A stretch of 64,000 nucleotides of DNA from IMG/VR virus record IMGVR_UViG_3300029044_000314, positions 88,108 to 152,107 of that record; one strand, 5' to 3'. The DNA is from a virus. Positions 34,516 to 62,126 of the stretch are shown here, one piece after another. How positions within the stretch are numbered: position 1 is the first letter of the stretch; every line of letters starts with the position of its first letter. The notes beneath the pieces are model-generated. The model was not told the origin of the DNA. It did not search any database and saw nothing but the letters and a program-made list of their open reading frames with translations. A program made the translations under genes and the position numbers.

Positions 34516-34544
34516 GATTGGAAGATTGGAATACTGCCGTATGA
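34516..34544 (+). repeat. copy 1 of a conserved ~35-bp motif (GATTGGAA-TTGGAA-ACTGCCGTAT...)
   Basis: gattggaagattggaatactgccgtatgag; near-identical copies at 50039, 57058 and 62092. Confidence 0.5.
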
Positions 34545-34650
34545 GAAAACTTTTCTGACCGTTTGACGGTTGGAAAAGCATGAAATGTTCCGCTTGGCGT
34601 GTCGGGAACCCAAATATCGACACGCCACCTTTTAGATTCTTTATAACCGC

Positions 34651-35712
34651 ATGGGAGGGGTTTTGGGAAAACATACGGCGAAACCGAAAGGCTTGGGAAA
34701 TCGAGCCATAGCGGGACTTCTCTGCCTAATCCTATCCGCCCTGTCCGGAACCATCCCATTCATTCTCATGATTTCGAACAGCAGCCAATCCAACCGGTTG
34801 ACCGACTCCCACGCGCAAGCCGTGGAAAACACTGACGTGAAACGAATCGCCCAAGAGTATGCGGACGCGCAAGCCTACAATCAACGCCTATACGAGGAAG
34901 GCCAGCCCATTCTTGGTGAGGCGGAAGACCCTTGGACAGGCGTCAACAAGTCCGAAACGGACAACACGTATCGGAAGCAACTATCCACCCCCAAGGATGG
35001 GGTCATGGCCACCATCAAATATCCACGCTTGGGCATCAACCTGCCCATCCGGCATGGCACGTCGCAAAACGTGTTGGCCGCTGGAGCCGGACACTTATAT
35101 GGTTCCAGTCTCCCCGTCGGCGGCAAGAACACGCATACTGTCATATCCGCGCACACGGGTTTGGCAGACCAGCTCATGTTCGACAAGCTACGAGGCTTCG
35201 GCAGTGAAGCCAAAAAAAGTGACGTCTTCTATCTGATAACCGCCGGACATACGCTCGCCTACAAGGTCACAAGCATTGATGTGGTAGACCCATCCGATTT
35301 CACCAAACTGAAAATCGTCGCCGGAAAAGACCTCGCCACACTCCTAACCTGCACGCCATACGGCATCAACAACAAGCGACTCCTAGTGACCGGCACGCGC
35401 ACCAGCATGCCGCACCCCGCACCCAGACCCGAAAACGCGCCGAAAGACCACACGAACCAATGGCTCATACTGTACGTCGGCGGCTTCTGGCTTGCGGTAA
35501 TCATCATCACCATTCTCATCATCCGTAGAAAAACCACGCAAAGAAGGAACACTAATGGGTATTCTCAAAAAGCATGTGGCACATCCGGTAGCATTATTGG
35601 CCGCAATCGCCACACTGTCATCCGGCCTGATATGCATGACCAATCCGGTAGCCTCTCCGAAAGCGCATGCGGACGAGTTGAAACCCGCATATGCTACTGC
35701 GAAAATCGTTAA
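34651..35712 (+). CDS. class C (pilus-associated) sortase
   Basis: N-terminal TM, catalytic TLLTCTPYG (TLXTC), C-terminal TM WLILYVGGFWLAVIIITILIIRRK; the ORF tail overlaps the adhesin start by 158 nt. Confidence 0.85.
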   Translation: MGGVLGKHTAKPKGLGNRAIAGLLCLILSALSGTIPFILMISNSSQSNRLTDSHAQAVENTDVKRIAQEYADAQAYNQRLYEEGQPILGEAEDPWTGVNKSETDNTYRKQLSTPKDGVMATIKYPRLGINLPIRHGTSQNVLAAGAGHLYGSSLPVGGKNTHTVISAHTGLADQLMFDKLRGFGSEAKKSDVFYLITAGHTLAYKVTSIDVVDPSDFTKLKIVAGKDLATLLTCTPYGINNKRLLVTGTRTSMPHPAPRPENAPKDHTNQWLILYVGGFWLAVIIITILIIRRKTTQRRNTNGYSQKACGTSGSIIGRNRHTVIRPDMHDQSGSLSESACGRVETRICYCENR

Positions 35713-38700
35713 GAAAGCCGACGGTACGGGGCATGGCACGAGTTCGCAAACGTTCGTGAATTCGAAGAACGGGTTCGCCACGGGCGATGATTCCCCTACC
35801 GATGGCGTGGTCGCATCCGGTGATACGGTCGAATATTCTCTCACGTTGAACTTCAACGCGGCGGGCAAGCGTACCATCAACGTGAAGTTCGACTTGGATG
35901 ACGCGCCGTATTTGCAGACTGCTGACGGTGGTGGCTTCTGCCAGCCGGGACAACTCGTCACCGCGAAGAAAAACAGTGACGGCTCCTGCTCCTACACGGT
36001 TCCAGCCGGTGGCGTGGAAACCATGACCCAAACCTTCTATCTGAAAGCAAAAGACACGGGAGGCTTGGTCAAGCCGGGTCAGATTCCGAAAATCGTCGTC
36101 GCCCGCGAAGGTGGAACGTCAACCACGTATCGTACGGATGAGCTGACTGTAGTATCCGCTCCGGCGGCTGACTTGGTCATTGACAATGGCGGCAATCCGG
36201 TGAAAGGCCAATACTCGTATGAGCATCGTACTTATTGGAGTCAGAACACCGATGCGACCGGTGATTTCACTATTCGTACCGACGCGTTGACCTATCCGGG
36301 TTATTCGTCCACGAAGGGCGCGTCCACCAGCATCGATTGGACTACCAAAGTGGATATTTCCGACTTCCCGCAGGGCACCGTGTGGACTGTAGGCGGTCAG
36401 CGGATTACCCGTAACAGTGATAAAGAACAGTATTTGACCGTATCCAGTGGCAAAAACGGTACGGCGGCGACAATCAGCTACAGGATTCCCGCCGGAACCG
36501 ACGCGCTCAAAAACATGAAAGAAGGAGACGTCAAATATTACGATGTCCACCTTGTTCCCGACGAAACCGTGTTCAGCGTCAAAGACGATAACGGCAACGC
36601 ACTGTTGAACATGGGCAAGGGCGGCGAACCCGGCTGGAACATTGGACGGGACAAGAGCACCTACAACAAGGATACGGGTGCCCGCGTCGGCTACCCGTAC
36701 GCGAACAATGACTGGTCACGAGCCATCATCCAACGGCTCAAGCCGACTCCAGCTGGCAAGATTCCACTGTTCGGCAAAGGACTGCAACGTCCTAACACTG
36801 CGTCCAAGACCATGTTCGACAAGGAGAATCTGACGTTCGACGCCGCCGAAGGCAAAGCCGACATCTACCATTACTATTCCGACGGTTCCGGCGACACCGT
36901 GTCCCGTGGAACGCAAGTCAAAACCATTTTGGAAATGTATGCGGCGAACGTTACTGCGGACAAGCTTAAAAACACTACGCCGACCATGCAGGATGAGTGG
37001 GATAATACGCGCATGCGGTGGGATGGAAGCTTGGAAGTCACCCAGAACGGTGCTCCGGTTTCCGACTACAAAGTTCAATGGGCTGATAGCAAAGACAATT
37101 GGCATGACGGGGAACCATCCGACACGGACGCTCCGAACGTCAAGAAGATTCGGGTGACGTTCAACCCCGACACGTTGACTTTAGGAAAGGGTGCGCCGAA
37201 CGTTCAGGTCACGTTCAACACGCTCGCCATAGCCGACGTGTCCAAAGGCAATGTGGAAGCTTTGGATACGCTGACCGCATGGCTTACCGAAGACGATAAG
37301 GCGAGCGTCACCAATTGGGTGTGGATTGCCAAGCCGGTAGACCCGACCACCAGTATCGACATCAGTCTGAAAGCCTACGATGGTGAAGGCAATCAAGTGT
37401 ATGCGAACAACAGTTCCAATCACCCGTCCGGAAGCGCAGTCGATTTGACTCCCGGCATGCGAGTGGATTATACGGTCACGGAACAGTTGCGCACCATTCT
37501 CCTGTCCAATACAAGCATGACGCCGACCATCACGGTGCCGAAACCGAAAGGCTTGTACAATCCGACCTGTGATGATTCGTTCTGGCAGATGAAAGTGGAC
37601 GGGAATAATCTCGTGTTCACGCCACGTTCTGGCAAAGTCACGCCGGAAGTAGACCGTATGGGGTCGGCCACTTTGCCTGACCTGCATTTCAGTGGCATCG
37701 TATCCAATCTCGCCACCGGGACTGTGACCGCCAGTGCGAATATGAGCGTGGACGTTGACGAGAACGGCGCATTGCAAGCCCAAACCATCAAAAGCAATAC
37801 GCCCAGCGTCCCATTCCCCGTCTCCAATGCGGAAACCAACAGTGGCATCATGCGTGTGAAGACCACGAAGGCTGAAATCGGTGACCCGCTTACTTGGGAG
37901 TTCAACGTGTACGGCAAGGGCGGCGGTCACACCGGCACCATGGATAGCATGCTACTGCTTCCTGCGAATGGTGATGAGAAGTACGTGCAGGACAAGCTGG
38001 TCGAATATGAGCGTGGATACAGCAACTATCATGGCTCCTACGAACTGACCCAGCCCGTCACGGTCAATATGGACAATTCGACCAGTACGACCGTCTACTA
38101 TTCAACCACCACCGGAAAGAAGTCGGATAATCCAGCTGACTACGAGTGGAAGACATGGGATGAATTGTCCGCCATCGAGAAGAAGAACATCACCGCCATC
38201 CGACTGACCAGCACTGTCGTCGCGTCTGACGATAAACTGTCCTATTCGGCGGTGAACGGCACCATCACGCTCATCCCATCCGACAATGTGAAAGACGACA
38301 AGTACACGCTGTGGCTTGGCCGCAACTATTATTCCGACGCTTCCGACAAACCGGCGGGCAACCAGCCGTGGCCTGACGTGGCGAAGATAGTGTCCGGTAG
38401 TATCAGCGGTACCGTCTGGTGGGATAAGGATGAGAACACGCTCATCGGAGACGGTGAGGAACGTATCGAAGGAGTGGAAGTCACCCTCGGCAAGCAGGAT
38501 TCAAGCGGCGGCTGGCAGACCGTCAAAACGGTGAAGACCGACAAGGACGGCCATTACGAGTTCGACCTGCTCCACTCCGGCACCTACCGCACTTCGGTGA
38601 AACGCAACACTGGCACCAGTACGGGTGATGGCGTGCAGACGCAGGTCAAAACCTACTACAACAAGCTTGAAAACGTGACGAACACGCGCAGCTGGTCGAA

Positions 38701-40942
38701 CAAAATCAAATCCAACGCGAAAGACACGTCCGACGACATCCACCTAGGCATCGGCGCAGACCAGAAGAACGTGGACTACGGTTACGCCAAGCCAGACCCG
38801 AAAGCCACCGTGGACAAAACCGTCACCGGCACCAGTTGCACTGATACGAAATGCGTCATCAACTGGGATGTCAAAGTACAGAATTCTGGCACTAGTCGTT
38901 TTGACACGTCCAGTGTCGTTTCTGACCGTATGAGCGCTGATGTGCATGATGTTTCCGCTACCGCCGGTACGGTTTCCATCGAGTCTGGTGGCGCGAAACA
39001 GGTTGCTACGAGTGGCGACCATAAGTTCGTGCTCACCAATGAGGGCTTGTTGTATGCGTGGGGGAACAACCAGTATGGTCAGCTTGGTTTCAAGCCTGAC
39101 ACGACGAATTCTGCCACTCCAATGAACGTAAACAAGCCGACCATCATCAACGGTAGTTGGCTGAAAGTCGCCGCCGGAGGCAAACACTCCGCCGCCATCA
39201 GCACGGACGGCCACCTGTACACGACCGGTTGGAATGGTAGCGGCCAATTGGGTACGGGTGATACGGACAATCGTGACCAGTGGACGGAAGTCGCTTCAGA
39301 TAAGACATTCATTGACGTGGCATGCGGCAACCAGTTCACCGTCGCCATCGCAAGCGACGGCACTTTGTGGGGTGTTGGAAACGCTGTAAGCTATCAGAAC
39401 TATGCGACTTGGACGCAAATCGGTTCTGATGTCAAGTTCACTCAACTCAGTGCAAGCATGGACGGTTTCATCGCATTGAACACATCCGGCAGATACCTGT
39501 ACTACGGTACAGATGTTCGGGGGCAGGGCGCTGGCGGTTATACGCAAGTCGCCGCCGCGTTCGGTCGAATGTATGCGTTGAAAAATGATGGGACGGTGAT
39601 TCAGGTTGCCACAACCTATGATGACTCTTATTCGCCTAACTTGTCCGGTTTGAAGGACATTGTGAAAATCAGCGGCGGATACAATACCTTGTACGCCATC
39701 GACAAGAACCAGCACTTGTGGTCTATGGGTTGGAATGGTGACGGCCAGTTGGCTAACGGTCAGACCGGTAGTGGCACGTATTGGACGGACGGTTGGACGA
39801 GTGACAATAAGGATATTGTCAACACTCCGTTCGATACGAACATTATTGCATCCGACGTGGCGGGTGGCGACCGTGACGTGCTCATTCTTAGCAAGCAGGT
39901 CATGATTGCGGGCTCCGACCCGTATGGTGACGGTAAGACGGGTGGCGCGCGTTCCACCGGTTTGAAAGGCATGGCCGTATCGTCCGACCCAACCGCCGTA
40001 CCTGTCGAACCATCGAGCGAAACCACTGAGAACGAGTTGACTACCCGCACATACAATCTGCCATACAGCATTAAGCCGGGCGGCTATGTCATCTACCATT
40101 TCACCGGCACCGTTGACCGTGATATTACGGATACGACAAAGTGGGAACTGTCCGATATTGACAAGTGGGTGAAAGAGCATACGAAGACCATTCTCAACCA
40201 AGCATGGTTCGACTCCGAACACACACCATACTCGGGCACGCCACACGCAAGCGGCAAAACCAAGCCGAACACTCCGGACGCTACGAAACTGGATGCCAAC
40301 ACGAATGATGTGACCGGCAATCCGACCTGCCGCACCGACACGGACTATACGGAGGAAGGACGTCAACACTGGTTCAGCACGTCCGATGAGGACTCCTGCG
40401 ACCAAGTCGGCACCATCATCACCCCAACCACAACCGCGAAGAACCTCGGTTCCATCAGCGGCCTATATTGGGACGACACGAACAAGAACGGCATCCAAGA
40501 TGAAGGTGAGAACACGCATTTCGCCGGTCAGACGGTCATTCTGACTGACGAGAACGGCAAACAGTTGGCAACCACCAAGACCGACGAGGATGGCAAGTAC
40601 ATTTTCGAACGTCTGGACGCGAACGGCAACAAATACCGTATCCAATTCACCAAAGTGAACCACCGGGACTTCACCACGCCGGATGCGGGAGACAAGACCC
40701 CTGCGACGGATGGAAGCTCCACTGATTCGGACGCTTACACGGACGAAGACAACAAGCTGACCATCACCCTCACCCAAGATGCTCCAACCAAGGAGCATGT
40801 GGATGCGGGTGTCCTGCCTGAAACATGGTTGGCGACCATGCCGCACACAGGCATGGGATTGCTGTTGCCGCTCCTCATGCTCGTCAGCATCAGCGGACTC
40901 GTCACGGCAATCATCCTCCTACGAAAGAAGGAAGAACAGTGA
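35555..40942 (+). CDS. giant sortase-substrate surface adhesin (RCC1-like beta-propeller + CnaB/SdrD-B repeats)
   Basis: 1795 aa; strong RBS aagaaggaac; signal peptide; RCC1 repeats (YAWGNNQYGQLG, TTGWNGSGQLGTGD, SMGWNGDGQLANG); two CnaB/SdrD-B-type domains (GTVWWDKDEN..., GLYWDDTNKNGIQDEGE...); C-terminal LPETW...MPHTG + TM + RKKEEQ sorting-signal-like end. Confidence 0.8.
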   Translation: MGILKKHVAHPVALLAAIATLSSGLICMTNPVASPKAHADELKPAYATAKIVKKADGTGHGTSSQTFVNSKNGFATGDDSPTDGVVASGDTVEYSLTLNFNAAGKRTINVKFDLDDAPYLQTADGGGFCQPGQLVTAKKNSDGSCSYTVPAGGVETMTQTFYLKAKDTGGLVKPGQIPKIVVAREGGTSTTYRTDELTVVSAPAADLVIDNGGNPVKGQYSYEHRTYWSQNTDATGDFTIRTDALTYPGYSSTKGASTSIDWTTKVDISDFPQGTVWTVGGQRITRNSDKEQYLTVSSGKNGTAATISYRIPAGTDALKNMKEGDVKYYDVHLVPDETVFSVKDDNGNALLNMGKGGEPGWNIGRDKSTYNKDTGARVGYPYANNDWSRAIIQRLKPTPAGKIPLFGKGLQRPNTASKTMFDKENLTFDAAEGKADIYHYYSDGSGDTVSRGTQVKTILEMYAANVTADKLKNTTPTMQDEWDNTRMRWDGSLEVTQNGAPVSDYKVQWADSKDNWHDGEPSDTDAPNVKKIRVTFNPDTLTLGKGAPNVQVTFNTLAIADVSKGNVEALDTLTAWLTEDDKASVTNWVWIAKPVDPTTSIDISLKAYDGEGNQVYANNSSNHPSGSAVDLTPGMRVDYTVTEQLRTILLSNTSMTPTITVPKPKGLYNPTCDDSFWQMKVDGNNLVFTPRSGKVTPEVDRMGSATLPDLHFSGIVSNLATGTVTASANMSVDVDENGALQAQTIKSNTPSVPFPVSNAETNSGIMRVKTTKAEIGDPLTWEFNVYGKGGGHTGTMDSMLLLPANGDEKYVQDKLVEYERGYSNYHGSYELTQPVTVNMDNSTSTTVYYSTTTGKKSDNPADYEWKTWDELSAIEKKNITAIRLTSTVVASDDKLSYSAVNGTITLIPSDNVKDDKYTLWLGRNYYSDASDKPAGNQPWPDVAKIVSGSISGTVWWDKDENTLIGDGEERIEGVEVTLGKQDSSGGWQTVKTVKTDKDGHYEFDLLHSGTYRTSVKRNTGTSTGDGVQTQVKTYYNKLENVTNTRSWSNKIKSNAKDTSDDIHLGIGADQKNVDYGYAKPDPKATVDKTVTGTSCTDTKCVINWDVKVQNSGTSRFDTSSVVSDRMSADVHDVSATAGTVSIESGGAKQVATSGDHKFVLTNEGLLYAWGNNQYGQLGFKPDTTNSATPMNVNKPTIINGSWLKVAAGGKHSAAISTDGHLYTTGWNGSGQLGTGDTDNRDQWTEVASDKTFIDVACGNQFTVAIASDGTLWGVGNAVSYQNYATWTQIGSDVKFTQLSASMDGFIALNTSGRYLYYGTDVRGQGAGGYTQVAAAFGRMYALKNDGTVIQVATTYDDSYSPNLSGLKDIVKISGGYNTLYAIDKNQHLWSMGWNGDGQLANGQTGSGTYWTDGWTSDNKDIVNTPFDTNIIASDVAGGDRDVLILSKQVMIAGSDPYGDGKTGGARSTGLKGMAVSSDPTAVPVEPSSETTENELTTRTYNLPYSIKPGGYVIYHFTGTVDRDITDTTKWELSDIDKWVKEHTKTILNQAWFDSEHTPYSGTPHASGKTKPNTPDATKLDANTNDVTGNPTCRTDTDYTEEGRQHWFSTSDEDSCDQVGTIITPTTTAKNLGSISGLYWDDTNKNGIQDEGENTHFAGQTVILTDENGKQLATTKTDEDGKYIFERLDANGNKYRIQFTKVNHRDFTTPDAGDKTPATDGSSTDSDAYTDEDNKLTITLTQDAPTKEHVDAGVLPETWLATMPHTGMGLLLPLLMLVSISGLVTAIILLRKKEEQ

Positions 40943-42864: not shown

Positions 42865-44094
42865 ATGTCTTGGGTTGTTGCCGACGACCTGCCCTCAACC
42901 ATTCTTTTCTCTTTCCCTAGTGAAGGAAGCATTAAAATCGTGAATGCGAGTCAAAGACGTAGAAGACGCCAACGCAGACTGCAACAACGCTCGGATGATA
43001 AGTACAGGAAGCTCCACCGTTACATCGACTTCCAACAAACATTCGGATTCGACGCGCTCTACCAAGCCGCAAGAAAATGCAAACGCGGCGTCACATGGAA
43101 AAACACAGTGTTGAACTTCGACAATAGGCGTGCCGTCAACTGTTGGAAACTCGCCCAAGAATTAGAGGACGGCACATACAAGAAGAGAGCGCCAATCCGA
43201 TTCGACATTTCCGAACGAGGCAAACTCCGCCACATCAGCGCGGTATCCTTCCGAGACCGGGTGGTGCAACGCGCCTTATGCGACAACAGTCTCGTCCCCA
43301 TCGTGGAAAGCCAACTGATATACGATAATGCGGCAAGCCTACCGAAACGTGGAACATCGTTCGCCCGAAAACGGTTCGAACTACACTATAAGCGGGCTTT
43401 GGGCAAATGGGAGCATCCGTATGCTGTCATCTTCGACTGTGCCAACTATTTCGGAAGTATCAGCTCCCAACGAGCGTTCGATATGATTTCCACCCTGTAC
43501 CGGAGCATCGCCCGCACCGGACGGGAGAAGCAGGATGTGGAACGGATTCTAACCGTATTGAGAATCTTCGTATTGGACGAACCTCACTTGGGTTTAGGCA
43601 ATCAGACAAGCCAAACCATGGCTATCTGGTATTTGAACAAGGTTGACCACTGGTGCATGTCGCAAGGATTCTACGGACGGTATATGGATGATGCCTACTG
43701 TTTCTGCAAGAATCGTGAACAGGCCGAACGTGTGCTGGCCGGTTACGAGCGGCATGTCAATCAATTGGGATTGCGGTTGAACAAGCGCAAGACCCGCATA
43801 GTGGACTGTCGCACCGGTCAACTCACATTCCTGAAACGCGTATACAGCGTACAGGATGACGGCAGTATTCTTATCCGCATGCACCATAAGGCGTTGCGTG
43901 CAAGCCGACGGCATGCGCGTAACCTTATCCGCTCATATGATGGCGTGCATGTGGGATTGCGGACAGTTCAGGATTCTTGGACGAGCCATGAGAGCACACT
44001 GTCGGGTCTAACTCACCGTCGTGGACTGTGCGCTCGGGAGAAAGCGTGGTATCGGAGGCATTGTGAAATGCGGAAGCTGGCTTTTCACCCGTGA
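42865..44094 (+). CDS. DGR reverse transcriptase
   Basis: 409 aa; RT motifs AVIFDCANYFGSI, DGR-diagnostic LGLGNQTSQ ([ILV]GxxxSQ), catalytic YGRYMDDAYCF (YMDD). Confidence 0.85.
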   Translation: MSWVVADDLPSTILFSFPSEGSIKIVNASQRRRRRQRRLQQRSDDKYRKLHRYIDFQQTFGFDALYQAARKCKRGVTWKNTVLNFDNRRAVNCWKLAQELEDGTYKKRAPIRFDISERGKLRHISAVSFRDRVVQRALCDNSLVPIVESQLIYDNAASLPKRGTSFARKRFELHYKRALGKWEHPYAVIFDCANYFGSISSQRAFDMISTLYRSIARTGREKQDVERILTVLRIFVLDEPHLGLGNQTSQTMAIWYLNKVDHWCMSQGFYGRYMDDAYCFCKNREQAERVLAGYERHVNQLGLRLNKRKTRIVDCRTGQLTFLKRVYSVQDDGSILIRMHHKALRASRRHARNLIRSYDGVHVGLRTVQDSWTSHESTLSGLTHRRGLCAREKAWYRRHCEMRKLAFHP

Positions 44095-50038: not shown

Positions 50039-50073
50039 GATTGGAATTGGAAGACTGCCGTATTACTCCTTCC
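50039..50073 (+). repeat. copy 2 of the conserved ~35-bp motif
   Basis: gattggaattggaagactgccgtattactccttcc. Confidence 0.5.
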
Positions 50074-50116
50074 TTCTACTTCTCTCATATTTGGCAAAAA
50101 AGAAAGGAAGAATTAC

Positions 50117-51241: not shown

Positions 51242-51264
51242 TATACTGGAACTGTTCACGCAAA
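51242..51264 (+). promoter_or_regulatory. conserved 23-bp promoter-like motif (variant)
   Basis: tatactggaactgttcacgcaaa. Confidence 0.5.
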
Positions 51265-51292
51265 AGAGTCGTTCTCGCACACAGGAGAAAAA

Positions 51293-51757: not shown

Positions 51758-51782
51758 TTTCCTTTTCTCCGCATTTTTGTGC

Positions 51783-51805
51783 TATACTGGAATTGTTCAC
51801 ACAAA
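51783..51805 (+). promoter_or_regulatory. conserved 23-bp promoter-like motif
   Basis: tatactggaattgttcacacaaa. Confidence 0.55.
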
Positions 51806-51827
51806 CAGGAAACCAAAAGGAACGAAA

Positions 51828-52757: not shown

Positions 52758-52767
52758 AAGGGCAGCA

Positions 52768-53067
52768 ATGCGAAAAGCGACATTCATCAGAAAATACTAC
52801 GGGCACGGATACGACGCCCATATGGTCTATCTCGACTATATGTATCGCGGGCACGAATACACGGTGTATGAGAACCTAGCCCAAGGCAATGAGCCTCTCG
52901 CGTGGCAACACCGTGACGAGCAAAGCCGCATAGACCAGTTAATAGAACAGAAAGAGCGGGAAAAGAACGCGAAGCCGAAGCCAAGCCGGTATGAGGACAC
53001 CGCGCAATACGCCATCGACCAGCTTTATAACTTTCTCGATGGTGAACCGTCGGACTTTGACCAGTAG
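52768..53067 (+). CDS. hypothetical protein
   Basis: 99-aa ORF immediately after the paralog-1 gene. Confidence 0.35.
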   Translation: MRKATFIRKYYGHGYDAHMVYLDYMYRGHEYTVYENLAQGNEPLAWQHRDEQSRIDQLIEQKEREKNAKPKPSRYEDTAQYAIDQLYNFLDGEPSDFDQ

Positions 53068-53154
53068 TGGGGAAAAATTCCCAAGTCGTGTGGATGCTTT
53101 TGCATTTGCGCGGCTTTTTGTTTTTTGCGCTTTTGCGCTTTCTTTCAAATATAA

Positions 53155-53177
53155 TATACTGGAATTGTTCACACAAA
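53155..53177 (+). promoter_or_regulatory. conserved 23-bp promoter-like motif, orphaned by IS insertion
   Basis: tatactggaattgttcacacaaa followed within ~10 nt by the IS end instead of an RBS/ATG. Confidence 0.5.
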
Positions 53178-53184
53178 TATGAGA

Positions 53185-54610
53185 GAAAGAGCCAAATTGA
53201 CATCCTCCCCCGCATTCATGCGGGGGATTCCCGAATCTTACGGTTCGGGTTTCTGTTCGCTACGACAAAACAAGAAAGGAGGGGACGCTAATGCGAGACC
53301 TTGGTTCCGGTTCTGCCGTCCTTGCAGACGCTGACCGCAAGCCCTGCGGCGAGGATGTTTTCGGCTGCGTTCAAATCCCTGTCATGGGTTGTTCCGCAGT
53401 CCGGGCACGTCCATGCCTTGACTTTGAGGCCGGGCATGCCCTTCGGCCCGGTCTTCGCCCCGCAGTGGGAGCAGGTTTGTGTGCTCGGATAATACCTGTC
53501 GATGGTTATGAGCTGTCGCCCGTACCATTCGGCCTTGTATTCGAGCATTCGACGGAACTCCGACCATCCGGCGTCCATGATGCTCCTGTTCAGCCCGTTT
53601 TTCGCGGACTGGCCGTTGGGGAGCCAATGGTTCGGATTATCCGGGTCGGGTTTCGGCGCGCATCTTTTGGCCATGTTCTTCACGTTGAGGTCTTCGATGA
53701 CCACCGTTTGGTTCTCGCGGATTATCCTCGTGCTCAACTTGTGGAGGAAGTCACGGCGCATGTCCGTGATTCTGGCGTAGGTGCGGGCCACCTTGAGGGC
53801 GGCTTTCCGACGATTGTTGCTGCCTTTGGCTTTGCGGGACAACGCCTGTTGCTCCCGTTCGAGCCGTTGGGCGAGTTTCTTGTAGTGGCGTGGATTCGCT
53901 ATGGTCTCCCCGTCGCTGGTGACGGCGTAGCTGTCCACTCCCAAGTCGATTCCGACGGCGTTCCTTCGGGTGGGGAGAAGGCGGATGGTCTCCTCCACGA
54001 GGATGCTGACATGCCATCGTCCGGCGGCGTCCAAGCTTACGGTCACGGTGCTCGGCTCCGTCTTGCGGGGCAGTGTTCTGGACCATCGTATCGGCAATGG
54101 TTCGCGCATCTTGGCGAGCGTGAGTTCGTTGCGCTTGGCATCCCATTTGAACGCGCTTCGAGTGTATTCGGCGCTTCCGCCGTGGGATTTGGCCTTGAAT
54201 CTCGGATAGTCGCCGGTCTGCTTGAAGAAGTTGGAGAACGCCGTCTGCAAGTGTCTCAACGCCTGTTGCAGCGGCACACAGGACACTTCGTTCATGTACG
54301 AGTATTCGGCCGTTTTCTTCCATTGGGTGAGCATGGCGCTGGTCTGGACGTAGGTGATGCTCTTGCGCTCCGCCGTCCATGCGGTGGAGCGGGCTTCCAA
54401 CGCGAGATTGTAGACCTTTCGGCAGCAGCCGACCGTGCGCCTGAGCAGTTGTTCCTGCTCGGGCGTCGGATAGAAGCGGAACCTGTACGCCCGCTTGCAT
54501 GCATGCCTTCTGACCATGTTTCACATTATATCATATCAATCTGTGAAAGGAGGACGGTTTGCTTCCTCCCCGCCCTAAAGGACAGGGTCTCCGCAAACCA
54601 AAAAAAAGAT
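53185..54610 (-). mobile_element. IS200/IS605-family TnpB-only insertion sequence (IS1341-like)
   Basis: tnpB plus structured ends: hairpins ctcccccgcattcatgcggggg and cccgaa...ttcggg 3' of tnpB; ggagga...tcctcc and ccct...aggg 5' of tnpB; no tnpA; exact boundaries uncertain. Confidence 0.55.
53288..54517 (-). CDS. tnpB: TnpB (OrfB_IS605) RNA-guided endonuclease-type transposase accessory protein
   Basis: 409 aa; RuvC-like core (GIDLGVDSYAVT, VVIEDLNVKNM) and C-terminal Zn-finger CSHCG...CPDCG. Confidence 0.85.
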   Translation of the reverse strand: MVRRHACKRAYRFRFYPTPEQEQLLRRTVGCCRKVYNLALEARSTAWTAERKSITYVQTSAMLTQWKKTAEYSYMNEVSCVPLQQALRHLQTAFSNFFKQTGDYPRFKAKSHGGSAEYTRSAFKWDAKRNELTLAKMREPLPIRWSRTLPRKTEPSTVTVSLDAAGRWHVSILVEETIRLLPTRRNAVGIDLGVDSYAVTSDGETIANPRHYKKLAQRLEREQQALSRKAKGSNNRRKAALKVARTYARITDMRRDFLHKLSTRIIRENQTVVIEDLNVKNMAKRCAPKPDPDNPNHWLPNGQSAKNGLNRSIMDAGWSEFRRMLEYKAEWYGRQLITIDRYYPSTQTCSHCGAKTGPKGMPGLKVKAWTCPDCGTTHDRDLNAAENILAAGLAVSVCKDGRTGTKVSH

Positions 54611-54849
54611 GACGCCGTGGACGAGACGTGTTCCGATGAGCAGCTTGCCGACTTCGTTGGACAGCCTGACACCGCTTTCGTCCACAGCATCAATATCCGC
54701 AGGATTCTGTATCGCTCCGGACTTCTGAACTAAAATATGGGAATATGCCCGCAGGAAAATCATGTGGGCGTATTCCTTTTTTTCGTATGAGCAGGGATTG
54801 CGTCTTCGTTTTGGCTTGGTTGCGTGTTGTGTTTTATCTCAACTTAGGC

Positions 54850-54872
54850 TATACTGGAATCGTTCACACAAG
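54850..54872 (+). promoter_or_regulatory. conserved 23-bp promoter-like motif
   Basis: tatactggaatcgttcacacaag. Confidence 0.5.
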
Positions 54873-54893
54873 ATATGCCGAGAAGGAGAAACC

Positions 54894-55859
54894 ATGGACA
54901 ACGACGCAATCAACAGTCTTACCAAAAAGTGGACTGCCAACCTCGTTTACTGCTTCGAGGACTTCGACAACGAAACCCACTCGCAACGACTGAGCGCATA
55001 CATCGACCAGAAGTCCTTAGACAAATTCAAGGAAGCCAACCTAATCGAACTGACCAAGGAACGCGACCGTTGGAAGCTTACCAACAAGGGAATCGACCTG
55101 CTGGAAAGCATTAAGAACATCTACCGGAGTGGAAGAATATTCCCTCTCCCCTTACCGTTCCGTCACTATTACATCAACTGCAAGTTGAAGTACAACATGA
55201 AAATCGAGGACGGAAAGATATACGACGGACTGCGTGAAACCGTGTTGAAAGACCGGAGTCGTGACGTTCGCCGCAAGGTGGCCGAATATTTGGAATACAA
55301 GGGAAAACTCAACTATAAGACCGCGACCAGCCTCGCCAAGGACAAAGACCCCGAACTACGCAAGCTCGCCGCAAAGCATACCGTTGCAAGCCTGTACTGG
55401 GAGGAAACGGATTACGACGTTATCCGCTACATGGTGGAAAACAAGCTGGCCGATAGGCTCTGCTTCGAGCATTGGGTGAAAAGCGAAGACGAAACCATCC
55501 GCGCCCTATCGGCACCGTTGGCGGAGGAAACGGACATAGACCCGTTGTTGGACTCCCTCTCCGACGAATCCGCCATCCAAGTCTTGTTCAATAATCCGGA
55601 ATGGGTCAAAGGTAAGCGTGCCGTGCGCTTGTGGCGTCGCATGGGCGGGGAAAACCGCCGTTGGATTATGTCCTTTATGTGGGATGTTCCCGATTCTCTA
55701 ATTGAGGAGTCGTTAGCGGAACCTCGTAATTGGCAAATCTCTTCTCGATTGGAGGAGTATAAGAAGGCGTTGCAGACCGTGGCCCGTATGGAGCGCTTGT
55801 TTGCCAAGGGTAGTGAGATTAAACGCAAGATGCGTGCCCGTGCCGGTTTGTCCGATTGA
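54894..55859 (+). CDS. HEAT-like repeat protein, paralog 2
   Basis: 321 aa; alignable along its full length with 51828..52757 (RDRWKLTNKG / LPLPFRHYY / KDRSRDVRRKVAEYL / SEIKRKMRARAG). Confidence 0.5.
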   Translation: MDNDAINSLTKKWTANLVYCFEDFDNETHSQRLSAYIDQKSLDKFKEANLIELTKERDRWKLTNKGIDLLESIKNIYRSGRIFPLPLPFRHYYINCKLKYNMKIEDGKIYDGLRETVLKDRSRDVRRKVAEYLEYKGKLNYKTATSLAKDKDPELRKLAAKHTVASLYWEETDYDVIRYMVENKLADRLCFEHWVKSEDETIRALSAPLAEETDIDPLLDSLSDESAIQVLFNNPEWVKGKRAVRLWRRMGGENRRWIMSFMWDVPDSLIEESLAEPRNWQISSRLEEYKKALQTVARMERLFAKGSEIKRKMRARAGLSD

Positions 55860-55882
55860 GGTTTGATGGGGGGGGGAGGCGG

Positions 55883-55915
55883 GATGCTGTTTTGGTGTCC
55901 CGCTTTTGTTTTTTG
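55883..55915 (+). terminator. putative intrinsic terminator
   Basis: gcggga...tcccgc hairpin followed by ttttgtttttt. Confidence 0.5.
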
Positions 55916-55942
55916 AGGTTTTGCGGTTTTTCTCAAGTGTGC

Positions 55943-55965
55943 TATAGTGGAATTGTTCACACAAA
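55943..55965 (+). promoter_or_regulatory. conserved 23-bp promoter-like motif
   Basis: tatagtggaattgttcacacaaa. Confidence 0.5.
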
Positions 55966-55992
55966 GAGCGATAGGCAAAAGGAGCACATAAC

Positions 55993-56253
55993 ATGTACGC
56001 AATCCACTACATCGGCGGCGCAATCAACGTCAAGAAAATGCCCAAAAAACAAGCAGTCGAATACGCCAAACAAATCAACGACAACGCCCTCTCAAGCACC
56101 TTCCCCGAAAGCGTGAAACTCGTTCAAAGTCCCGAAGCCCGCACCATCATGCAAAACAGACTCTTCGCAAAAGACATCTACGCCCGCCACAGCGACGTAT
56201 ACAGCATGAGCATGGCTGAACTCGTCAACGCAGTCAACGAATACTGTTGCTGA
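55993..56253 (+). CDS. hypothetical protein
   Basis: 86 aa after RBS aaaaggagcacat. Confidence 0.4.
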   Translation: MYAIHYIGGAINVKKMPKKQAVEYAKQINDNALSSTFPESVKLVQSPEARTIMQNRLFAKDIYARHSDVYSMSMAELVNAVNEYCC

Positions 56254-56299
56254 AAAACAATCACCACAAACCCCAATTACACGAAAAAGGACAATCAGA

Positions 56300-56662
56300 A
56301 TGTACTCGAAAATCAGCGAAGACACCTATCGGAAACTCATCGACAAACTCGTCAGAATCCCCTACGTGACCGGCGCTCACGCAACCCGAGCCATCTTCGG
56401 AGACGGAATCGAAGTCGCATTCCAACACCGTTACATGGGCAAGCAGGTCGAGTACTATCTGGTGGCCGACTCGCAACGAGACGGCAGACGTTCCTACCGT
56501 TGGCGTGGCGGAGTATACACGGTTCCGTCCGCACACTGGACTTTCGATGACGGGGAATACACGCCCGTCGAACTGGAAGAACATAAGCTGGAATCGTTGG
56601 ATGTTGACGGACTGTATGACGCGATTGTGTCCGATTTAGACAAGGCCATGAGAGAATTGTAG
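56300..56662 (+). CDS. hypothetical protein
   Basis: 120-aa ORF. Confidence 0.4.
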   Translation: MYSKISEDTYRKLIDKLVRIPYVTGAHATRAIFGDGIEVAFQHRYMGKQVEYYLVADSQRDGRRSYRWRGGVYTVPSAHWTFDDGEYTPVELEEHKLESLDVDGLYDAIVSDLDKAMREL

Positions 56663-56672
56663 GAAAACGAAA

Positions 56673-57047
56673 ATGCGATTCACCGACGGCAAGGAAAAGC
56701 TGGAAATCGAAATCCACGAAGGCCAGCATTCTTGGGATACAACGGTAGAATTCTTCGACCATTTGACGACTCCCATTCTGAATGGGACTCGTCAGGCCGG
56801 AAACGTTCGCACTCTACTGACGAACGTGTACAACAGGATTCTAGGCATGTCCGACTATCCCGCACCGGAAGCCGACACTCGGGCAATCTACACCATCACC
56901 GACTTGACTGGAACCATTGTCAGGGAAGGTTCTTTCACTTCGTCCGACAATCCAGCCAACATGTATTGCAGCGGTTGCGGTTGCCTTCTCAGCGAGGAGA
57001 ACGAGAACCTTTGCGGCGATACCGGCTGGTGTGATAACTGCTATTGA
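56673..57047 (+). CDS. hypothetical protein with C-terminal CxxC...CxxC
   Basis: 124 aa; YCSGCGC...CGDTGWCDNC. Confidence 0.4.
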   Translation: MRFTDGKEKLEIEIHEGQHSWDTTVEFFDHLTTPILNGTRQAGNVRTLLTNVYNRILGMSDYPAPEADTRAIYTITDLTGTIVREGSFTSSDNPANMYCSGCGCLLSEENENLCGDTGWCDNCY

Positions 57048-57057
57048 GAAATTGGAT

Positions 57058-57092
57058 TGGAAGACTGCCGTTTCTATGCCTCCTTATTGTTC
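57058..57092 (+). repeat. copy 3 of the conserved ~35-bp motif
   Basis: aaattggattggaagactgccgtttctatgcctcc. Confidence 0.45.
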
Positions 57093-57121
57093 TATCGGAT
57101 TGTGTTTTGCGCTAATATCAT

Positions 57122-57144
57122 ATATACTGGAATTGTTCACACAG
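57122..57144 (+). promoter_or_regulatory. conserved 23-bp promoter-like motif
   Basis: tatactggaattgttcacacagt. Confidence 0.55.
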
Positions 57145-57174
57145 TAAGAAGTTGAATCCCAACAAGGAGAAAAA

Positions 57175-57429
57175 ATGAGCAACACCACCAAAGAAATCGA
57201 CTGGCACAACACCCTCCCCCAAAACTTGGAAGGCCACAAGTGCATCGCAGTCACCAAAACCGGCGAAACCATCGAAGGCATACTGGAATATCGCACGGCA
57301 CAACCCGACATGTACGTGAGAATCGATAGCCTCCACCTCCCCGGCGTCAAACCATGGGTTATTGTCAACCAATGCGAATCCGGCAACGAAATGGGCGAAG
57401 AATTCCAGTCCGTGAAAGTGTTCGCCTGA
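57175..57429 (+). CDS. hypothetical protein
   Basis: 84 aa after RBS acaaggagaaaaa. Confidence 0.45.
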   Translation: MSNTTKEIDWHNTLPQNLEGHKCIAVTKTGETIEGILEYRTAQPDMYVRIDSLHLPGVKPWVIVNQCESGNEMGEEFQSVKVFA

Positions 57430-57440
57430 AAGGTTCACGA

Positions 57441-57605
57441 ATGAGTAACCACGACTGGGTAGCAACCGACAGTCCCAATAAAAACAACACTCACAAGAAC
57501 AACCGTTCCACTCATAACGGATGGGACGCCGGTAGCGCTTGGAACCCGCAATCCAAGGAACGAAACGAATTCGGCATACGCAATACCGACTGGAGCAACG
57601 ACTAG
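57441..57605 (+). CDS. small hypothetical protein
   Basis: 54 aa, N/W-rich; weak support. Confidence 0.25.
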   Translation: MSNHDWVATDSPNKNNTHKNNRSTHNGWDAGSAWNPQSKERNEFGIRNTDWSND

Positions 57606-57642
57606 CCCCCACGTCAAAAAACGTTAGACCAAAAGGAGAAAA

Positions 57643-57972
57643 ATGGACAGCGGCTACTATGAGTATCTGACCAACTCAGCCAAAAACGACCCTGAACTGA
57701 ACGAGCACGACAAAGAGACCGTACTGGCGTTTCTGAAACGACTCGACGCCAACCCCGACAAGTATGCGGTAGCCCCAAGAACAATCGCATACTTGAATGA
57801 AGAATCTTTGGAATACGCTGACATTACAACCGAAACCCTTAAGAAGCTCGACATGAGCGCTACGCAACTGTTGGACGAATGGTGGGAAAACGTTTGGGGT
57901 AGCGCTACTATTGAGGACGATTGCCTTGAGGGACTAAACGAAGTTCTAGAACTTCACGGAGCCAGTGAATGA
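57643..57972 (+). CDS. acidic hypothetical protein
   Basis: 109 aa after RBS aaaaggagaaaa. Confidence 0.45.
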   Translation: MDSGYYEYLTNSAKNDPELNEHDKETVLAFLKRLDANPDKYAVAPRTIAYLNEESLEYADITTETLKKLDMSATQLLDEWWENVWGSATIEDDCLEGLNEVLELHGASE

Positions 57973-58023
57973 TACCAGAATGCCCGTGGAAAACGACTTC
58001 CACGGGTATTCTCGTCTCAATTT

Positions 58024-61985: not shown

Positions 61986-62018
61986 TTGCCCTCTTTAATG
62001 GTTTATGTTATACTGGGG

Positions 62019-62041
62019 GTGTTCACATAAAAAACCATTCC
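62019..62041 (+). promoter_or_regulatory. conserved 23-bp promoter-like motif (variant)
   Basis: tatactgggggtgttcacataaa. Confidence 0.45.
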
Positions 62042-62091
62042 AAAAAAGGAGAACACCATGAAAAAACATCGACCCATACGAACTCATGCAC

Positions 62092-62126
62092 GATTGGGAT
62101 TGGAATACTGCCGTATTACTACTTCC
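62092..62126 (+). repeat. copy 4 of the conserved ~35-bp motif
   Basis: gattgggattggaatactgccgtattactacttcc; lies inside a 26-codon mini-ORF (62058-62138) that follows RBS aaaaaggagaacacc. Confidence 0.45.

What the first reader, a model, noticed from the sequence alone, without database searches (positions are those of the whole stretch)
34516..62126. Second conserved ~35-bp intergenic motif (GATTGGAATTGGAAGACTGCCGTATTACTCCTTCC) in four copies, one inside the pilus locus
Near-identical copies occur at 34516 (between the pilin and sortase genes), 50039, 57058 and 62092 (between small genes of the array). Each contains a repeated TTGGAA half-site, an ATAC…GTAT inverted end and a GGAAG…CTTCC arm. 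The copy at 62092 sits inside a 26-codon mini-ORF with its own RBS. Sharing between the pilus locus and the accessory-gene array points to a common cis element, such as a protein-binding site, RNA element, attenuator or MITE-like footprint.
Basis: seen in the sequence. Interest (0 to 1): 0.5.

Follow-up and report, generated by a model that had tools for sequence, protein, structure and literature searches.

The report
Solitary Cas9 CRISPR repeats in megaplasmid
The repeated "intergenic motif" is a lone copy (whole or front half) of the 36-base repeat of a Cas9 CRISPR system carried by related Bifidobacterium megaplasmids, scattered in sense orientation between genes of a plasmid that seems to lack Cas9 itself, and it most likely acts as an RNA mimic of CRISPR RNA in plasmid-versus-plasmid conflict.

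Summary
The motif is real and far beyond chance, but it was mis-bounded. The shared core is about 19 nt (GATTGGAAKACTGCCRTWT). There are five copies in the window, not four; the missed one is at 25121-25086 on the minus strand.

It is not a protein site, attenuator or MITE. It is the 5' part, or in three copies all 36 nt, of a type II-C CRISPR repeat. Related pMP7017-like Bifidobacterium megaplasmids carry arrays of up to 31 such repeats (28-nt spacers) next to cas9-cas1-cas2 and a tracrRNA.

The window copies are solitary repeat units. All are in crRNA sense within the local transcription units. Degenerate copies always keep the tracrRNA-pairing half. Predicted pairing to the cognate tracrRNA equals that of array repeats.

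The window's replicon type shows no cas9 or tracrRNA in three scans, yet a relative's spacer matches it 28/28.

Best reading (about 0.4): mRNA-embedded crRNA mimics that titrate tracrRNA/Cas9 of rival plasmids. Main rival (about 0.3): functionless debris copied from arrays. This is a new member of a known kind (SRU/Racr, scaRNA-like). Interest is moderate to high.

The parts
25086..25121 (-). Solo A. Full-length 36-nt solitary repeat GATTGGAAGACTGCCATATTACTAATTCCTTCTACT. Its first G is the last base of the TAG stop of a 76-aa gene (25121-25351, minus strand). A promoter-like site (25076-25047) and an AAA-ATPase gene lie downstream.
   Evidence: present in 17 of 22 orthologous loci retrieved independently of the motif
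34516..34542 (+). Solo B. An 8-nt partial duplicate (GATTGGAA, 34516-34523) is followed by the 5' 19 nt of the repeat (GATTGGAATACTGCCGTAT, 34524-34542). It starts directly after the pilin stop codon (TGA 34513-34515) and is followed by two hairpins and a terminator-like structure before the sortase gene (34651).
50039..50080 (+). Solo C. A partial duplicate GATTGG (50039-50044) is followed by a full-length repeat AATTGGAAGACTGCCGTATTACTCCTTCCTTCTACT (50045-50080). It lies between ORF 49594-50028 and the gene starting at 50117.
   Evidence: an allelic 'empty site' carrying a 38-nt GC hairpin at the same position is seen in L212
57055..57090 (+). Solo D. The 5' 17 nt of the repeat are intact (GATTGGAAGACTGCCGT) and the 3' half is degenerate. 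It begins 7 nt after the stop of ORF 56673-57047 and lies upstream of the conserved promoter/leader of gene 57175-57429.
62092..62133 (+). Solo E. A partial duplicate GATTGG (62092-62097) is followed by a full-length repeat GATTGGAATACTGCCGTATTACTACTTCCTTTTGCT (62098-62133). It lies about 70-80 nt downstream of the promoter-like site 61986-62014, inside a 25-codon mini-ORF (62059-62136), and 24 nt upstream of gene 62158-62784.
6565..6592 (+). Protospacer. A 28/28 match to a spacer flanked by canonical subtype-1 repeats in a relative's array (L150). It shows that this replicon type is a target of the CRISPR system whose repeat the solos copy.

Best explanation
IDENTITY (confidence about 0.95). 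Each copy is a solitary repeat unit (SRU) of a plasmid-borne type II-C CRISPR-Cas9 system. The system's crRNA-sense repeat is GATTGGAAGACTGCCGTATT(ACT/TAT)ACTTCCTTCTACT, with 28-nt spacers. It is found with cas9-cas1-cas2 and a tracrRNA on related pMP7017-like Bifidobacterium megaplasmids. The window's own replicon type appears to lack cas9 and tracrRNA.

MECHANISM (confidence about 0.4; every step below is inferred, not shown). The solos lie in crRNA sense inside operons, directly after stop codons or in a 5'UTR, and mostly upstream of terminators, so they are transcribed as part of mRNAs. Their conserved first 17-23 nt are exactly the segment that pairs with the tracrRNA anti-repeat. In a cell that also holds a 'subtype-1' Cas9 megaplasmid, they would pair with its tracrRNA. 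They would then be processed into extraneous, non-canonical crRNA-like species whose guide is the adjacent plasmid sequence. That guide is harmless to the plasmid itself, because the protospacer is followed by the repeat rather than a PAM. These species would compete with genuine crRNAs for tracrRNA and Cas9. In short, they would be an RNA anti-CRISPR or decoy in plasmid-versus-plasmid conflict.
For: Identity:
- 64-bp-period arrays of 21-31 copies occur in IMG/VR relatives.
- Cas9, Cas1 and Cas2 domains lie adjacent to them.
- A tracrRNA with its own promoter, a 23-nt anti-repeat, a nexus-like hairpin and a terminator sits upstream of cas9 in all 18 cas9 loci (fold z = -5.2).

Orientation:
- The anti-repeat is complementary to the window '+' reading, so the solos are crRNA-sense.
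- This agrees with the type II-C architecture described in PMC12080349.
- In all 8 loci where both neighbouring genes run the same way, the solo is sense.

Selective retention of the tracrRNA-pairing half:
- In window plus pMP7017, the 5' half occurs at 6 sites with at most 1 mismatch; the 3' half occurs only at 3 of those sites and never alone.
- A complete IMG/VR scan for the 3' half found no family copy lacking the 5' half. At least 5 independent copies keep only the 5' half.

Pairing:
- Solo:tracrRNA duplexes are -14.6 to -20.1 kcal/mol, against -18.2 for the array repeat and -8.4 +/- 2.8 for shuffles.
- Pairing to the subtype-2 tracrRNA is weaker.

Conflict context:
- A relative's spacer matches window 6565-6592 at 28/28.
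- Six spacers hit family members, none hit PLSDB, and one hit a phage record.
- The window-type 216.8-kb contig lacks cas9, the tracrRNA 31-mer and the neighbouring gene of the CRISPR locus.
- Subtype-1 and subtype-2 tracrRNAs differ at 9/25 anti-repeat positions but 0/40 promoter and 0/86 tail positions.
- Only subtype-1 solos exist.

Placement:
- Arrays are shielded by a terminator just upstream of their first repeat, whereas the solos sit where read-through is guaranteed.

Precedent:
- SRUs act as RNA anti-CRISPRs (PMC10651486).
- ecrRNAs divert Cas9 (PMC12080349).
- mRNAs with repeat-like stretches become ncrRNAs (PMC8224270).
- Viral scaRNAs have been reported (10.64898/2026.06.01.729453).
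Against: - There are no expression or interference data.
- Solos are as frequent and as intact in plasmids that carry the cognate subtype-1 Cas9 (2-4 per contig) as in Cas9-less or subtype-2 plasmids. This is awkward for a pure inhibitor.
- With about 6-7 solos against 20-30 array repeats, titration would need high expression.
- No known Acr genes lie next to them.
- Each window copy has one mismatch in the 5' half, and the G16A change in solo A weakens pairing (-14.8).
- A series of 5'-anchored copies of different lengths (17, 19, 22, 23, 36 and 64 nt, plus mini-arrays) with junction micro-duplications could reflect a copying mechanism rather than selection.
- 'Cas9-less' rests on scans of an IMG/VR contig, not on the closed source replicon.
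Confidence: 0.4

Rival explanations
1. Functionless debris. The solos are by-products of recombination or template-switch copying from CRISPR arrays into other parts of the plasmid. They persist neutrally and have merely been inherited with the backbone.
For: - Solos mark rearrangement junctions. Solo A came with a replaced gene end and intergenic segment (17 loci with it, 5 without).
- Solos in the tRNA operon interrupt tRNA genes and replace 170-250 nt. One insert is exactly repeat plus 28 nt.
- Solo C alternates with a hairpin allele.
- 5'-anchored copies of graded length and ATTGG micro-duplications suggest a copying mechanism.
- There is no difference in number or intactness by Cas9 status.
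- Each window copy carries a point change.
Against: - Sense orientation holds in 8 of 8 co-directional contexts.
- The tracrRNA-pairing half is always the part retained.
- A perfect 23-nt 5' segment occurs in pMP7017, whose proteins are only 30-65% identical to the window's.
- Copies are kept in many lineages at the same intergenic slots.
Confidence: 0.3
2. Guides or regulators for the plasmid family's own Cas9. Each solo plus its upstream sequence would form a non-canonical crRNA or scaRNA-like RNA. This RNA would direct Cas9 to a target (repression or rival cleavage), or would trigger tracrRNA/RNase III cleavage of the operon mRNA to tune expression of neighbouring genes such as pilin versus sortase.
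For: - The solos are crRNA-sense and pair well with tracrRNA.
- They co-occur with the cognate Cas9 in some plasmids.
- Relatives carry a mini-array in the tRNA operon whose spacer matches the conserved leader/RBS/ATG of many small genes, including window 51805-51832. Regulatory use of Cas9 in this family is therefore plausible.
- Precedents are scaRNA and tracr-L (10.64898/2026.06.01.729453).
Against: - The 28 nt upstream of the five window solos match nothing but their own orthologous loci in about 1.5 Mb of family sequence.
- 11-nt seed searches in cas loci gave only tRNA paralogues or empty-site alleles, with no promoter targets.
- The window-type replicon and pMP7017 lack the Cas9 and tracrRNA needed in cis.
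Confidence: 0.12
3. Portable promoters. Type II-C repeats carry their own promoter, so a sense-oriented solo upstream of a gene would drive that gene.
For: - Repeat-internal promoters are the rule in type II-C systems (PMC12080349).
- The repeat variant CGTATTTATACTTCC contains TATACT. With the ATTGG duplication, a TTGGAT hexamer lies 17 nt upstream of it (sequence inspection).
- Solos C, E and A lie 24-60 nt upstream of start codons.
Against: - The part conserved in degenerate solos is the 5' half, not the half holding the candidate -10.
- The window variants (TATTACT) lack a TANNNT hexamer, and the scan predicts no promoter inside any solo.
- Several solos are followed directly by terminators.
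- Solos A and D lie upstream of separate promoter-like sites.
Confidence: 0.07
4. DNA-level recombination sites. The dispersed 36-bp identities would serve as crossover points for cassette exchange between megaplasmids, or for capture or integration into CRISPR arrays.
For: Solos sit at boundaries of variable cassettes and at deletion or replacement junctions. Integration into arrays was an early suggestion for SRUs (cited in PMC10651486).
Against: - Recombination would not require sense orientation.
- It would not favour only the 5' 17-23 nt. Several solos are too short (17-19 nt) for homologous recombination.
Confidence: 0.06
5. One reading: an operator for a DNA-binding protein, a transcription attenuator, or a MITE footprint.
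For: Intergenic position, a short direct duplication of GATTGG(AA), and hairpins downstream of the pilin copy.
Against: - The sequence is identical to a CRISPR repeat, which explains it fully.
- No dyad, no conserved hairpin within the motif, and the core is single-stranded in 5 of 6 MFE folds.
- No TIR or TSD.
- The duplication is variable among orthologues.
- No Rfam hit.
Confidence: 0.03

Closest known systems
Solitary repeat units (SRUs) / RNA anti-CRISPRs (Racrs) of phages and plasmids (Camara-Wilpert et al. 2023, PMC10651486)
   Same: Lone copies of a CRISPR repeat on a mobile element, away from any array or cas gene, matching a CRISPR-Cas system that can attack that element. The proposed action is competition with crRNAs for Cas components.
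   Different: - Validated Racrs are for types I-C, I-E, I-F and V-A. They are small RNAs with their own promoter and bind Cas6, Cas7 or Cas12 directly.
- These solos are type II-C, so the first partner would be tracrRNA.
- There are at least 6 per replicon, embedded in mRNAs after ORFs.
- No acr genes are nearby.
- They also occur on plasmids carrying the cognate Cas9.
- Function is untested.
scaRNA / viral scaRNA and tracr-L / vsgRNA of type II systems (Feussner et al. 2026 preprint, 10.64898/2026.06.01.729453; Francisella scaRNA)
   Same: A degenerate solitary type II repeat that pairs with the tracrRNA anti-repeat. In some cases it has been co-opted by mobile elements against Cas9.
   Different: scaRNAs have a specific short guide matching a PAM-flanked target such as the cas9 promoter, and they are single-copy near cas or acr genes. 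Here no target was found for any window solo, and the copies are many and dispersed.
Extraneous crRNA (ecrRNA) of type II-C arrays and non-canonical crRNAs from mRNAs (PMC12080349; Jiao et al. 2021, PMC8224270)
   Same: A repeat preceded by non-spacer sequence and transcribed from outside yields a crRNA-like RNA that loads Cas9 without giving immunity. The mRNA-embedded context matches that of ncrRNAs.
   Different: ecrRNAs are an unavoidable by-product at the array edge, and systems suppress them; here too a terminator sits before the first repeat. ncrRNAs arise from chance similarity. The solos are true repeat copies placed where transcription is assured.
Mini-arrays / crRNA-like regulatory RNAs (crlRNA, CreA)
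   Same: CRISPR-derived elements outside the main array. Relatives of this plasmid do carry a 3-repeat mini-array in the tRNA operon.
   Different: The window copies are single repeats without a second repeat or a spacer. Known crlRNA and CreA are mostly class 1 or type V and repress a defined promoter.

Membership tests
CRISPR repeat of a type II-C system | The same sequence occurs as regularly spaced direct repeats separated by unique spacers. | tested here: met
   Arrays of 21-31 repeats with a 64-bp period (36 + 28) in L154, L155, L161 and L236. Window copies A, C and E match all 36 nt with 2-4 differences.
CRISPR repeat of a type II-C system | Arrays are adjacent to cas9-cas1-cas2 (no csn2 or cas4) and to a tracrRNA with an anti-repeat. 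| tested here: met
   Pfam Cas9_a, RuvC_III, HNH, Cas9_Topo, Cas_Cas1 and CRISPR_Cas2 hits. The tracrRNA is conserved in 18 loci.
Solitary repeat unit (SRU) | A single repeat-like sequence with no second repeat at spacer distance and no cas genes nearby, on a mobile element. | tested here: met
   No array in the window. No neighbouring copy at about 64 bp. No cas9 or tracrRNA in the window. The backbone is a conjugative megaplasmid.
RNA anti-CRISPR (Racr) | Expressed as an RNA, typically from a promoter immediately upstream. | tested here: inconclusive
   Only solo E has a promoter-like site upstream, about 70-80 nt away. The others are positioned to be read through from upstream ORFs. No RNA data are available.
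RNA anti-CRISPR (Racr) | Inhibits interference by the cognate CRISPR-Cas system. | not testable with these tools
   Needs interference or conjugation assays.
RNA anti-CRISPR (Racr) | Frequent genomic association with acr or aca genes. | tested here: not met
   20 neighbouring small proteins gave no Acr or Aca hit in PHROGs, and the flanking genes tested in Pfam gave none either. Most are of unknown function.
scaRNA-like Cas9 regulator | The sequence upstream of the degenerate repeat has at least 10-11 nt of complementarity to a PAM-flanked target such as the cas9 promoter. | tested here: not met
   No non-self match for the window solos. Seed matches in cas loci are tRNA paralogues or empty sites only. 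The PAM is unknown.
tracrRNA | Anti-repeat (complementary to the repeat) followed by a nexus, hairpins and a terminator. | tested here: not met
   Solos have the same sense as the repeat, and the conserved tracrRNA tail is absent from the window.
MITE / IS footprint | Terminal inverted repeats and target-site duplication. | tested here: not met
   No inverted termini. The ATTGG duplication is only on the 5' side and is variable.
Intrinsic terminator / attenuator | A conserved GC-rich hairpin plus U-tract within the element. | tested here: not met
   The core is unpaired in 5 of 6 MFE folds. Only the sequence downstream of copy B has such hairpins.

The most novel reading that the evidence does not exclude
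Bifidobacterium megaplasmids fight each other with plasmid-borne Cas9 and defend themselves with multiple mRNA-embedded crRNA mimics that soak up the rival's tracrRNA and Cas9. This RNA decoy pressure would have driven a precise swap of the repeat:anti-repeat pairing module. Subtype 2 differs from subtype 1 at 9/25 anti-repeat positions but at 0/126 positions in the rest of the tracrRNA gene. The result would be an orthogonal Cas9 system that the decoys no longer recognise. A further possibility is that tracrRNA-triggered RNase III cleavage at the solos lets a plasmid sense a rival and retune the pilus or accessory operons.
Probability: 0.25. Interest if true: 0.8.

Novelty: new member of a known kind. 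Interest (0 to 1): 0.58.

Why it matters
- It converts an anonymous intergenic motif into a testable element of CRISPR biology.
[quoted passage not shown] I did not find these in the pMP7017 literature I read: the pMP7017 transcriptome/comparative paper (PMC10832533) never mentions Cas9, and the 2026 bifidobacterial CRISPR review (PMC12838274) cites the megaplasmid only in its reference list.
- If the solos are decoys, they would be a natural RNA anti-CRISPR against Cas9 that works at the tracrRNA step and is carried by plasmids rather than phages. That is relevant to plasmid ecology in the infant gut and to Cas9-based editing of bifidobacteria.
- If they are debris, they still document how CRISPR repeats spread and rearrange a plasmid, through tRNA gene disruption and cassette junctions.

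Tried and rejected
1. The genome-contig scan with the degenerate 18-mer returned only single chance hits in unrelated taxa. It was wasted, and the pattern was too loose for 596 Gb.
2. An RNA structure for the motif: folds of six copies share no structure, and z-scores are mixed.
3. Rfam: nothing in the window, and no tracrRNA or CRISPR-DR family for the relatives' locus.
4. PLSDB BLAST of the motif: only the pMP7017 hit was meaningful.
5. Sigma-70 promoter inside the solos: none predicted.
6. scaRNA-type targets of the upstream 'pseudo-guides': none.
7. Mimicry of host chromosomal type II-C repeats: the repeats of two chromosomal-type Cas9 loci tested (45-49% identity to the megaplasmid Cas9; one from an NCBI genome assembly, one from a metagenome contig) differ, reading GCTGGGAATTAGC... 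in the crRNA sense I assumed by analogy.
8. Acr neighbours: none in PHROGs.
9. Spacer targets in PLSDB and phage collections: none, and one weak hit. The PAM could not be derived from the 6 family protospacers.
10. Depletion or decay of solos in subtype-1 Cas9 plasmids: not seen.
11. The 'second tracrRNA' at the array end is more simply read as a degenerate first repeat plus a bidirectional terminator insulating the array (PMC12080349).
12. My first greedy ORF-based orientation count was unreliable because of spurious antisense ORFs. It was replaced by a codon-usage-scored caller.


Full report

Yes, with corrections.
- The quoted 35-mer occurs exactly only at 50039, and with three mismatches at 62092.
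- All copies share a core of about 19 nt, GATTGGAAKACTGCCRTWT. It is found five times, against 0.17 expected from shuffles. The 13-mer TTGGAANACTGCC is exact in five places.
- Copies at 25121(-), 50045 and 62098 extend over 36 nt. The copy at 57055 is degenerate after nt 17, and the copy at 34524 ends after nt 19.
- The 'repeated TTGGAA half-site' is a 5-8 nt partial duplication of the element's own first bases.
- The proposed inverted arms do not give any shared fold. The core is unpaired in 5 of the 6 predicted structures. Rfam finds nothing.

**2. What replicon is this?**

- The window is syntenic with the Bifidobacterium breve conjugative megaplasmid pMP7017 over its partition, conjugation and replication backbone. 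Protein identity is only 30-65%.
- A TnpB insertion sequence is 97% identical to B. longum megaplasmids.
- Identical proteins occur on a 219,373-bp metagenomic contig and on an IMG/VR contig of 216,833 bp.
- The pilin and sortase are confirmed.
- pMP7017 itself has one exact copy of the 18-nt core (23 nt identical to the repeat). It is again intergenic and co-oriented with its genes.

**3. What is the motif?**

A scan of IMG/VR with the core returned many 100-217-kb relatives. In several of them there are arrays of 21-31 copies with a strict 64-bp period.
- Reading these arrays shows a 36-nt repeat, GATTGGAAGACTGCCGTATT(ACT/TAT)ACTTCCTTCTACT, separated by unique 28-nt spacers.
- The arrays lie next to genes with Cas9 (Cas9_a, RuvC_III, HNH, Topo, C-terminal), Cas1 and Cas2 domains. 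This is a type II-C CRISPR-Cas locus.
- This Cas9 forms a clade of its own (82-95% identity) known only from metagenome contigs up to 217 kb. The nearest chromosomal Bifidobacterium Cas9 is about 48% identical.
- Just upstream of cas9, all 18 loci carry a conserved small gene. It has a TTGCCA-N17-TATAGT promoter, a 23-nt stretch complementary to repeat nt 1-17, a hairpin and a strong terminator (fold z = -5.2). This is the tracrRNA.
- Its complementarity fixes the crRNA sense as the window '+' reading (GATTGGAAG first). The array is therefore transcribed towards the cas genes, as described for type II-C systems (PMC12080349).

The window copies are therefore solitary repeat units (SRUs) in crRNA sense.

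**4. Two flavours of the system**

- Cas9 loci fall into two subtypes. Subtype 1 has the repeat above.
- Subtype 2 has the repeat GTTTGGATATATGCCGTATTAACTCTTATTCAAACT and a matching anti-repeat.
- The two tracrRNA genes differ at 9 of 25 anti-repeat positions, but at 0 of 40 promoter and 0 of 86 tail positions.
- Predicted pairing is largely orthogonal. Cognate duplexes are -18 and -23 kcal/mol; cross duplexes are -13 to -14.5.
- All solitary copies are of subtype 1. A complete scan found subtype-2 repeats only in arrays, and none in the window.

**5. Anatomy of the solos**

In the window:
- All five are co-oriented with the flanking genes.
- A, B and D begin 0-7 nt after a stop codon, and C begins 16 nt after one.
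- E lies about 70-80 nt downstream of a promoter-like site, inside a 25-codon mini-ORF.
- B is followed by two hairpins and a terminator-like structure.
- A sixth solo lies about 2 kb beyond the window start on the same replicon type and is followed by a canonical terminator.

Across the family:
- In every locus where both neighbours run the same way (8 loci), the solo is sense (plus the gene calls).
- By contrast, the first repeat of true arrays is preceded by a terminator. This is the insulation against 'extraneous crRNA' described for type II-C (PMC12080349).

**6. Which part is kept?**

- In window plus pMP7017 (254 kb, an unbiased set), the 5' half occurs at six sites with at most 1 mismatch. 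The 3' half occurs only at three of these and never alone.
- A complete IMG/VR scan for the 3' half gave 83 matches. 74 have the 5' half attached, and 9 are chance hits in unrelated contigs. There is therefore no family copy with only the 3' half.
- At least five independent loci keep only the first 17-23 nt.
- That segment is what pairs with the anti-repeat and, in type II systems, what remains in mature crRNA.
- Solo:tracrRNA duplex energies (-14.6 to -20.1) equal that of the array repeat (-18.2). Shuffles give -8.4 +/- 2.8.

**7. Origin**

Solos are gained and lost.
- Of 22 AAA-ATPase loci retrieved by protein, not by motif, 17 have solo A and 5 diverged ones lack it. Those five also have a different end of the upstream gene.
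- Solo C has an allelic 'empty site' in which a 38-nt GC hairpin occupies exactly the same position.
- In the tRNA operon next to the CRISPR locus, solos interrupt tRNA genes and replace 170-250 nt. One insert is repeat plus 28 nt. Some relatives carry a 3-repeat mini-array there.
- The 5' junction shows variable ATTGG or GATTGGAA duplications.

These features suggest copying from arrays, anchored at the repeat's 5' end. The mechanism is unknown.

**8. Conflict context**

- A spacer flanked by canonical subtype-1 repeats in a relative (L150) matches window 6565-6592 at 28/28.
- In all, six of 147 spacers hit family members. None hit PLSDB plasmids, and one hit an uncultured phage record at 27/28.
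- The window-type 216.8-kb contig was negative in three scans: for Cas9 protein, for the invariant tracrRNA 31-mer, and for the gene neighbouring the CRISPR locus. The window has no tracrRNA.

So an apparently Cas9-less plasmid that is targeted by subtype-1 Cas9 carries at least 6 subtype-1 crRNA mimics.

**9. Most likely mechanism (inference)**

- The solos are transcribed within mRNAs and pair through nt 1-17/23 with subtype-1 tracrRNA supplied by a co-resident or invading relative.
- They are then handled like extraneous or non-canonical crRNAs (PMC12080349, PMC8224270), whose guide is the adjacent self sequence lacking a PAM.
- They thereby compete with real crRNAs. This would be an RNA anti-CRISPR in the sense of Racrs (PMC10651486) and viral scaRNAs (10.64898/2026.06.01.729453).
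- The anti-repeat-restricted divergence of subtype 2 fits escape from such mimics, or avoidance of cross-talk.
- I put this at about 0.4.

Against it:
- Solos are equally common and intact on plasmids with the cognate Cas9.
- There are no Acr neighbours.
- Stoichiometry is modest.
- There are no expression data.

**10. Rival explanations**

- Neutral array-derived debris (about 0.3) explains the junction features and graded lengths. It explains the strict sense orientation and 5'-half retention less well.
- Use by the family's own Cas9 as guides, regulators or RNase III processing sites (about 0.12) lacks any detectable target.
- Promoter activity (about 0.07) conflicts with which half is conserved and with terminators following several solos.
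- Recombination sites (about 0.06) do not need orientation or only 17-19 nt.
- The operator, attenuator and MITE ideas are disfavoured (about 0.03).

**11. Comparison and novelty**

- The element qualifies as an SRU: solitary, on a mobile element, away from cas genes.
- Membership of 'Racr' in the functional sense cannot be tested here. One typical feature (acr neighbourhood) is not met, and another (own promoter) is met only for copy E.
- It is not a scaRNA (no target), not a tracrRNA (wrong sense, no tail), and not a mini-array.
- I file it as a new member of a known kind. Its unusual traits are type II-C, many copies per replicon, mRNA-embedded position, plasmid-versus-plasmid setting, and a family with two orthogonal repeat/tracrRNA modules.
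- The pMP7017 transcriptome paper never mentions Cas9, and the 2026 bifidobacterial CRISPR review mentions a megaplasmid only in its reference list.

**12. Limits**

- The 'Cas9-less' status rests on a near-complete contig, not a closed replicon.
- The host is inferred.
- The PAM is unknown.
- All functional steps are inferred from sequence.

Noticed in passing
window 57095-57175, 61986-62058, 51780-51832, 49340-49393: A second conserved intergenic module precedes many small genes: a promoter-like TTGnnn-N17-TATACTGG, then TGTTCACA(C/T)AA, an A-rich leader, AAGGAG and ATG. A spacer in a 3-repeat mini-array of relatives (L131, L299) reads ACAGGAAACCAAAAGGAGCAAAAATGAG. It matches this leader/RBS/start region (window 51805-51832 with 2 mismatches; 49368-49393), which hints at Cas9-guided regulation or multi-site targeting.
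   Followed up: partly
window 6565-6592 (+), inside ORF 5448-6728 (-): A perfect 28/28 protospacer for a spacer of a subtype-1 array in IMG/VR contig 3300039366_000189 (L150). The 3' flank is TCCACGCG. The PAM could not be derived from the few protospacers available.
   Followed up: partly
L236 9840-9975; L190 206-343 (relatives): Two orthogonal versions of the plasmid Cas9 system. The tracrRNA genes are identical in promoter (0/40) and tail (0/86) but differ at 9/25 anti-repeat positions, with matching changes in the repeat. The Cas9 proteins are about 89% identical.
   Followed up: yes
L154 1610-1700; L190 about 7100-7165; L231 about 10300-10440 (relatives): Solitary repeats interrupt plasmid tRNA genes in the tRNA operon next to the CRISPR array and replace 170-250 nt. 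In L154 the insert is exactly one repeat plus 28 nt.
   Followed up: partly
window 7083-7110 and 7152-7215, next to ORF 7366-8355 (-): Perfect tandem repeats (10 bp x 2.8; 21 bp x 3, TTTGGTGGGAAAAGTCCACAC) lie beside the homologue of one of pMP7017's two annotated RepA genes (record positions 96166-97260). They look like iterons of a replication origin.
   Followed up: no
window 53288-54517 (-): A TnpB (IS200/IS605-type RNA-guided nuclease) element 97% identical to copies on B. longum megaplasmids. It is the only part of window 48000-58000, the one stretch searched, with near-identical DNA in PLSDB.
   Followed up: no
window 42865-44094 (+): A 409-aa reverse transcriptase (RVT_1 in precomputed gene calls) sits downstream of the pilus locus. 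Whether it is a group II intron, retron or other type was not determined.
   Followed up: no
window 34543-34650: The pilin-sortase spacer folds into two strong hairpins (13 bp and 11 bp), the second followed by a U-rich tract (z = -2.6). It is a probable partial terminator setting the pilin:sortase ratio, independent of the repeat.
   Followed up: partly
window 35555-40942 (+): A protein of about 1,730-1,795 aa after the sortase has SdrD_B and RCC1/WD40-like repeats (precomputed Pfam). It may be a pilus tip or adhesin candidate. The gene order differs from the pMP7017 pilus locus.
   Followed up: no
L212 (relative), position orthologous to window 50045-50080: An allele without the solitary repeat carries a 38-nt GC-rich hairpin (GGGGAGAAGCG...CGCTTCTCCCC) between identical flanks. 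Repeat and hairpin therefore occupy the same intergenic slot.
   Followed up: partly
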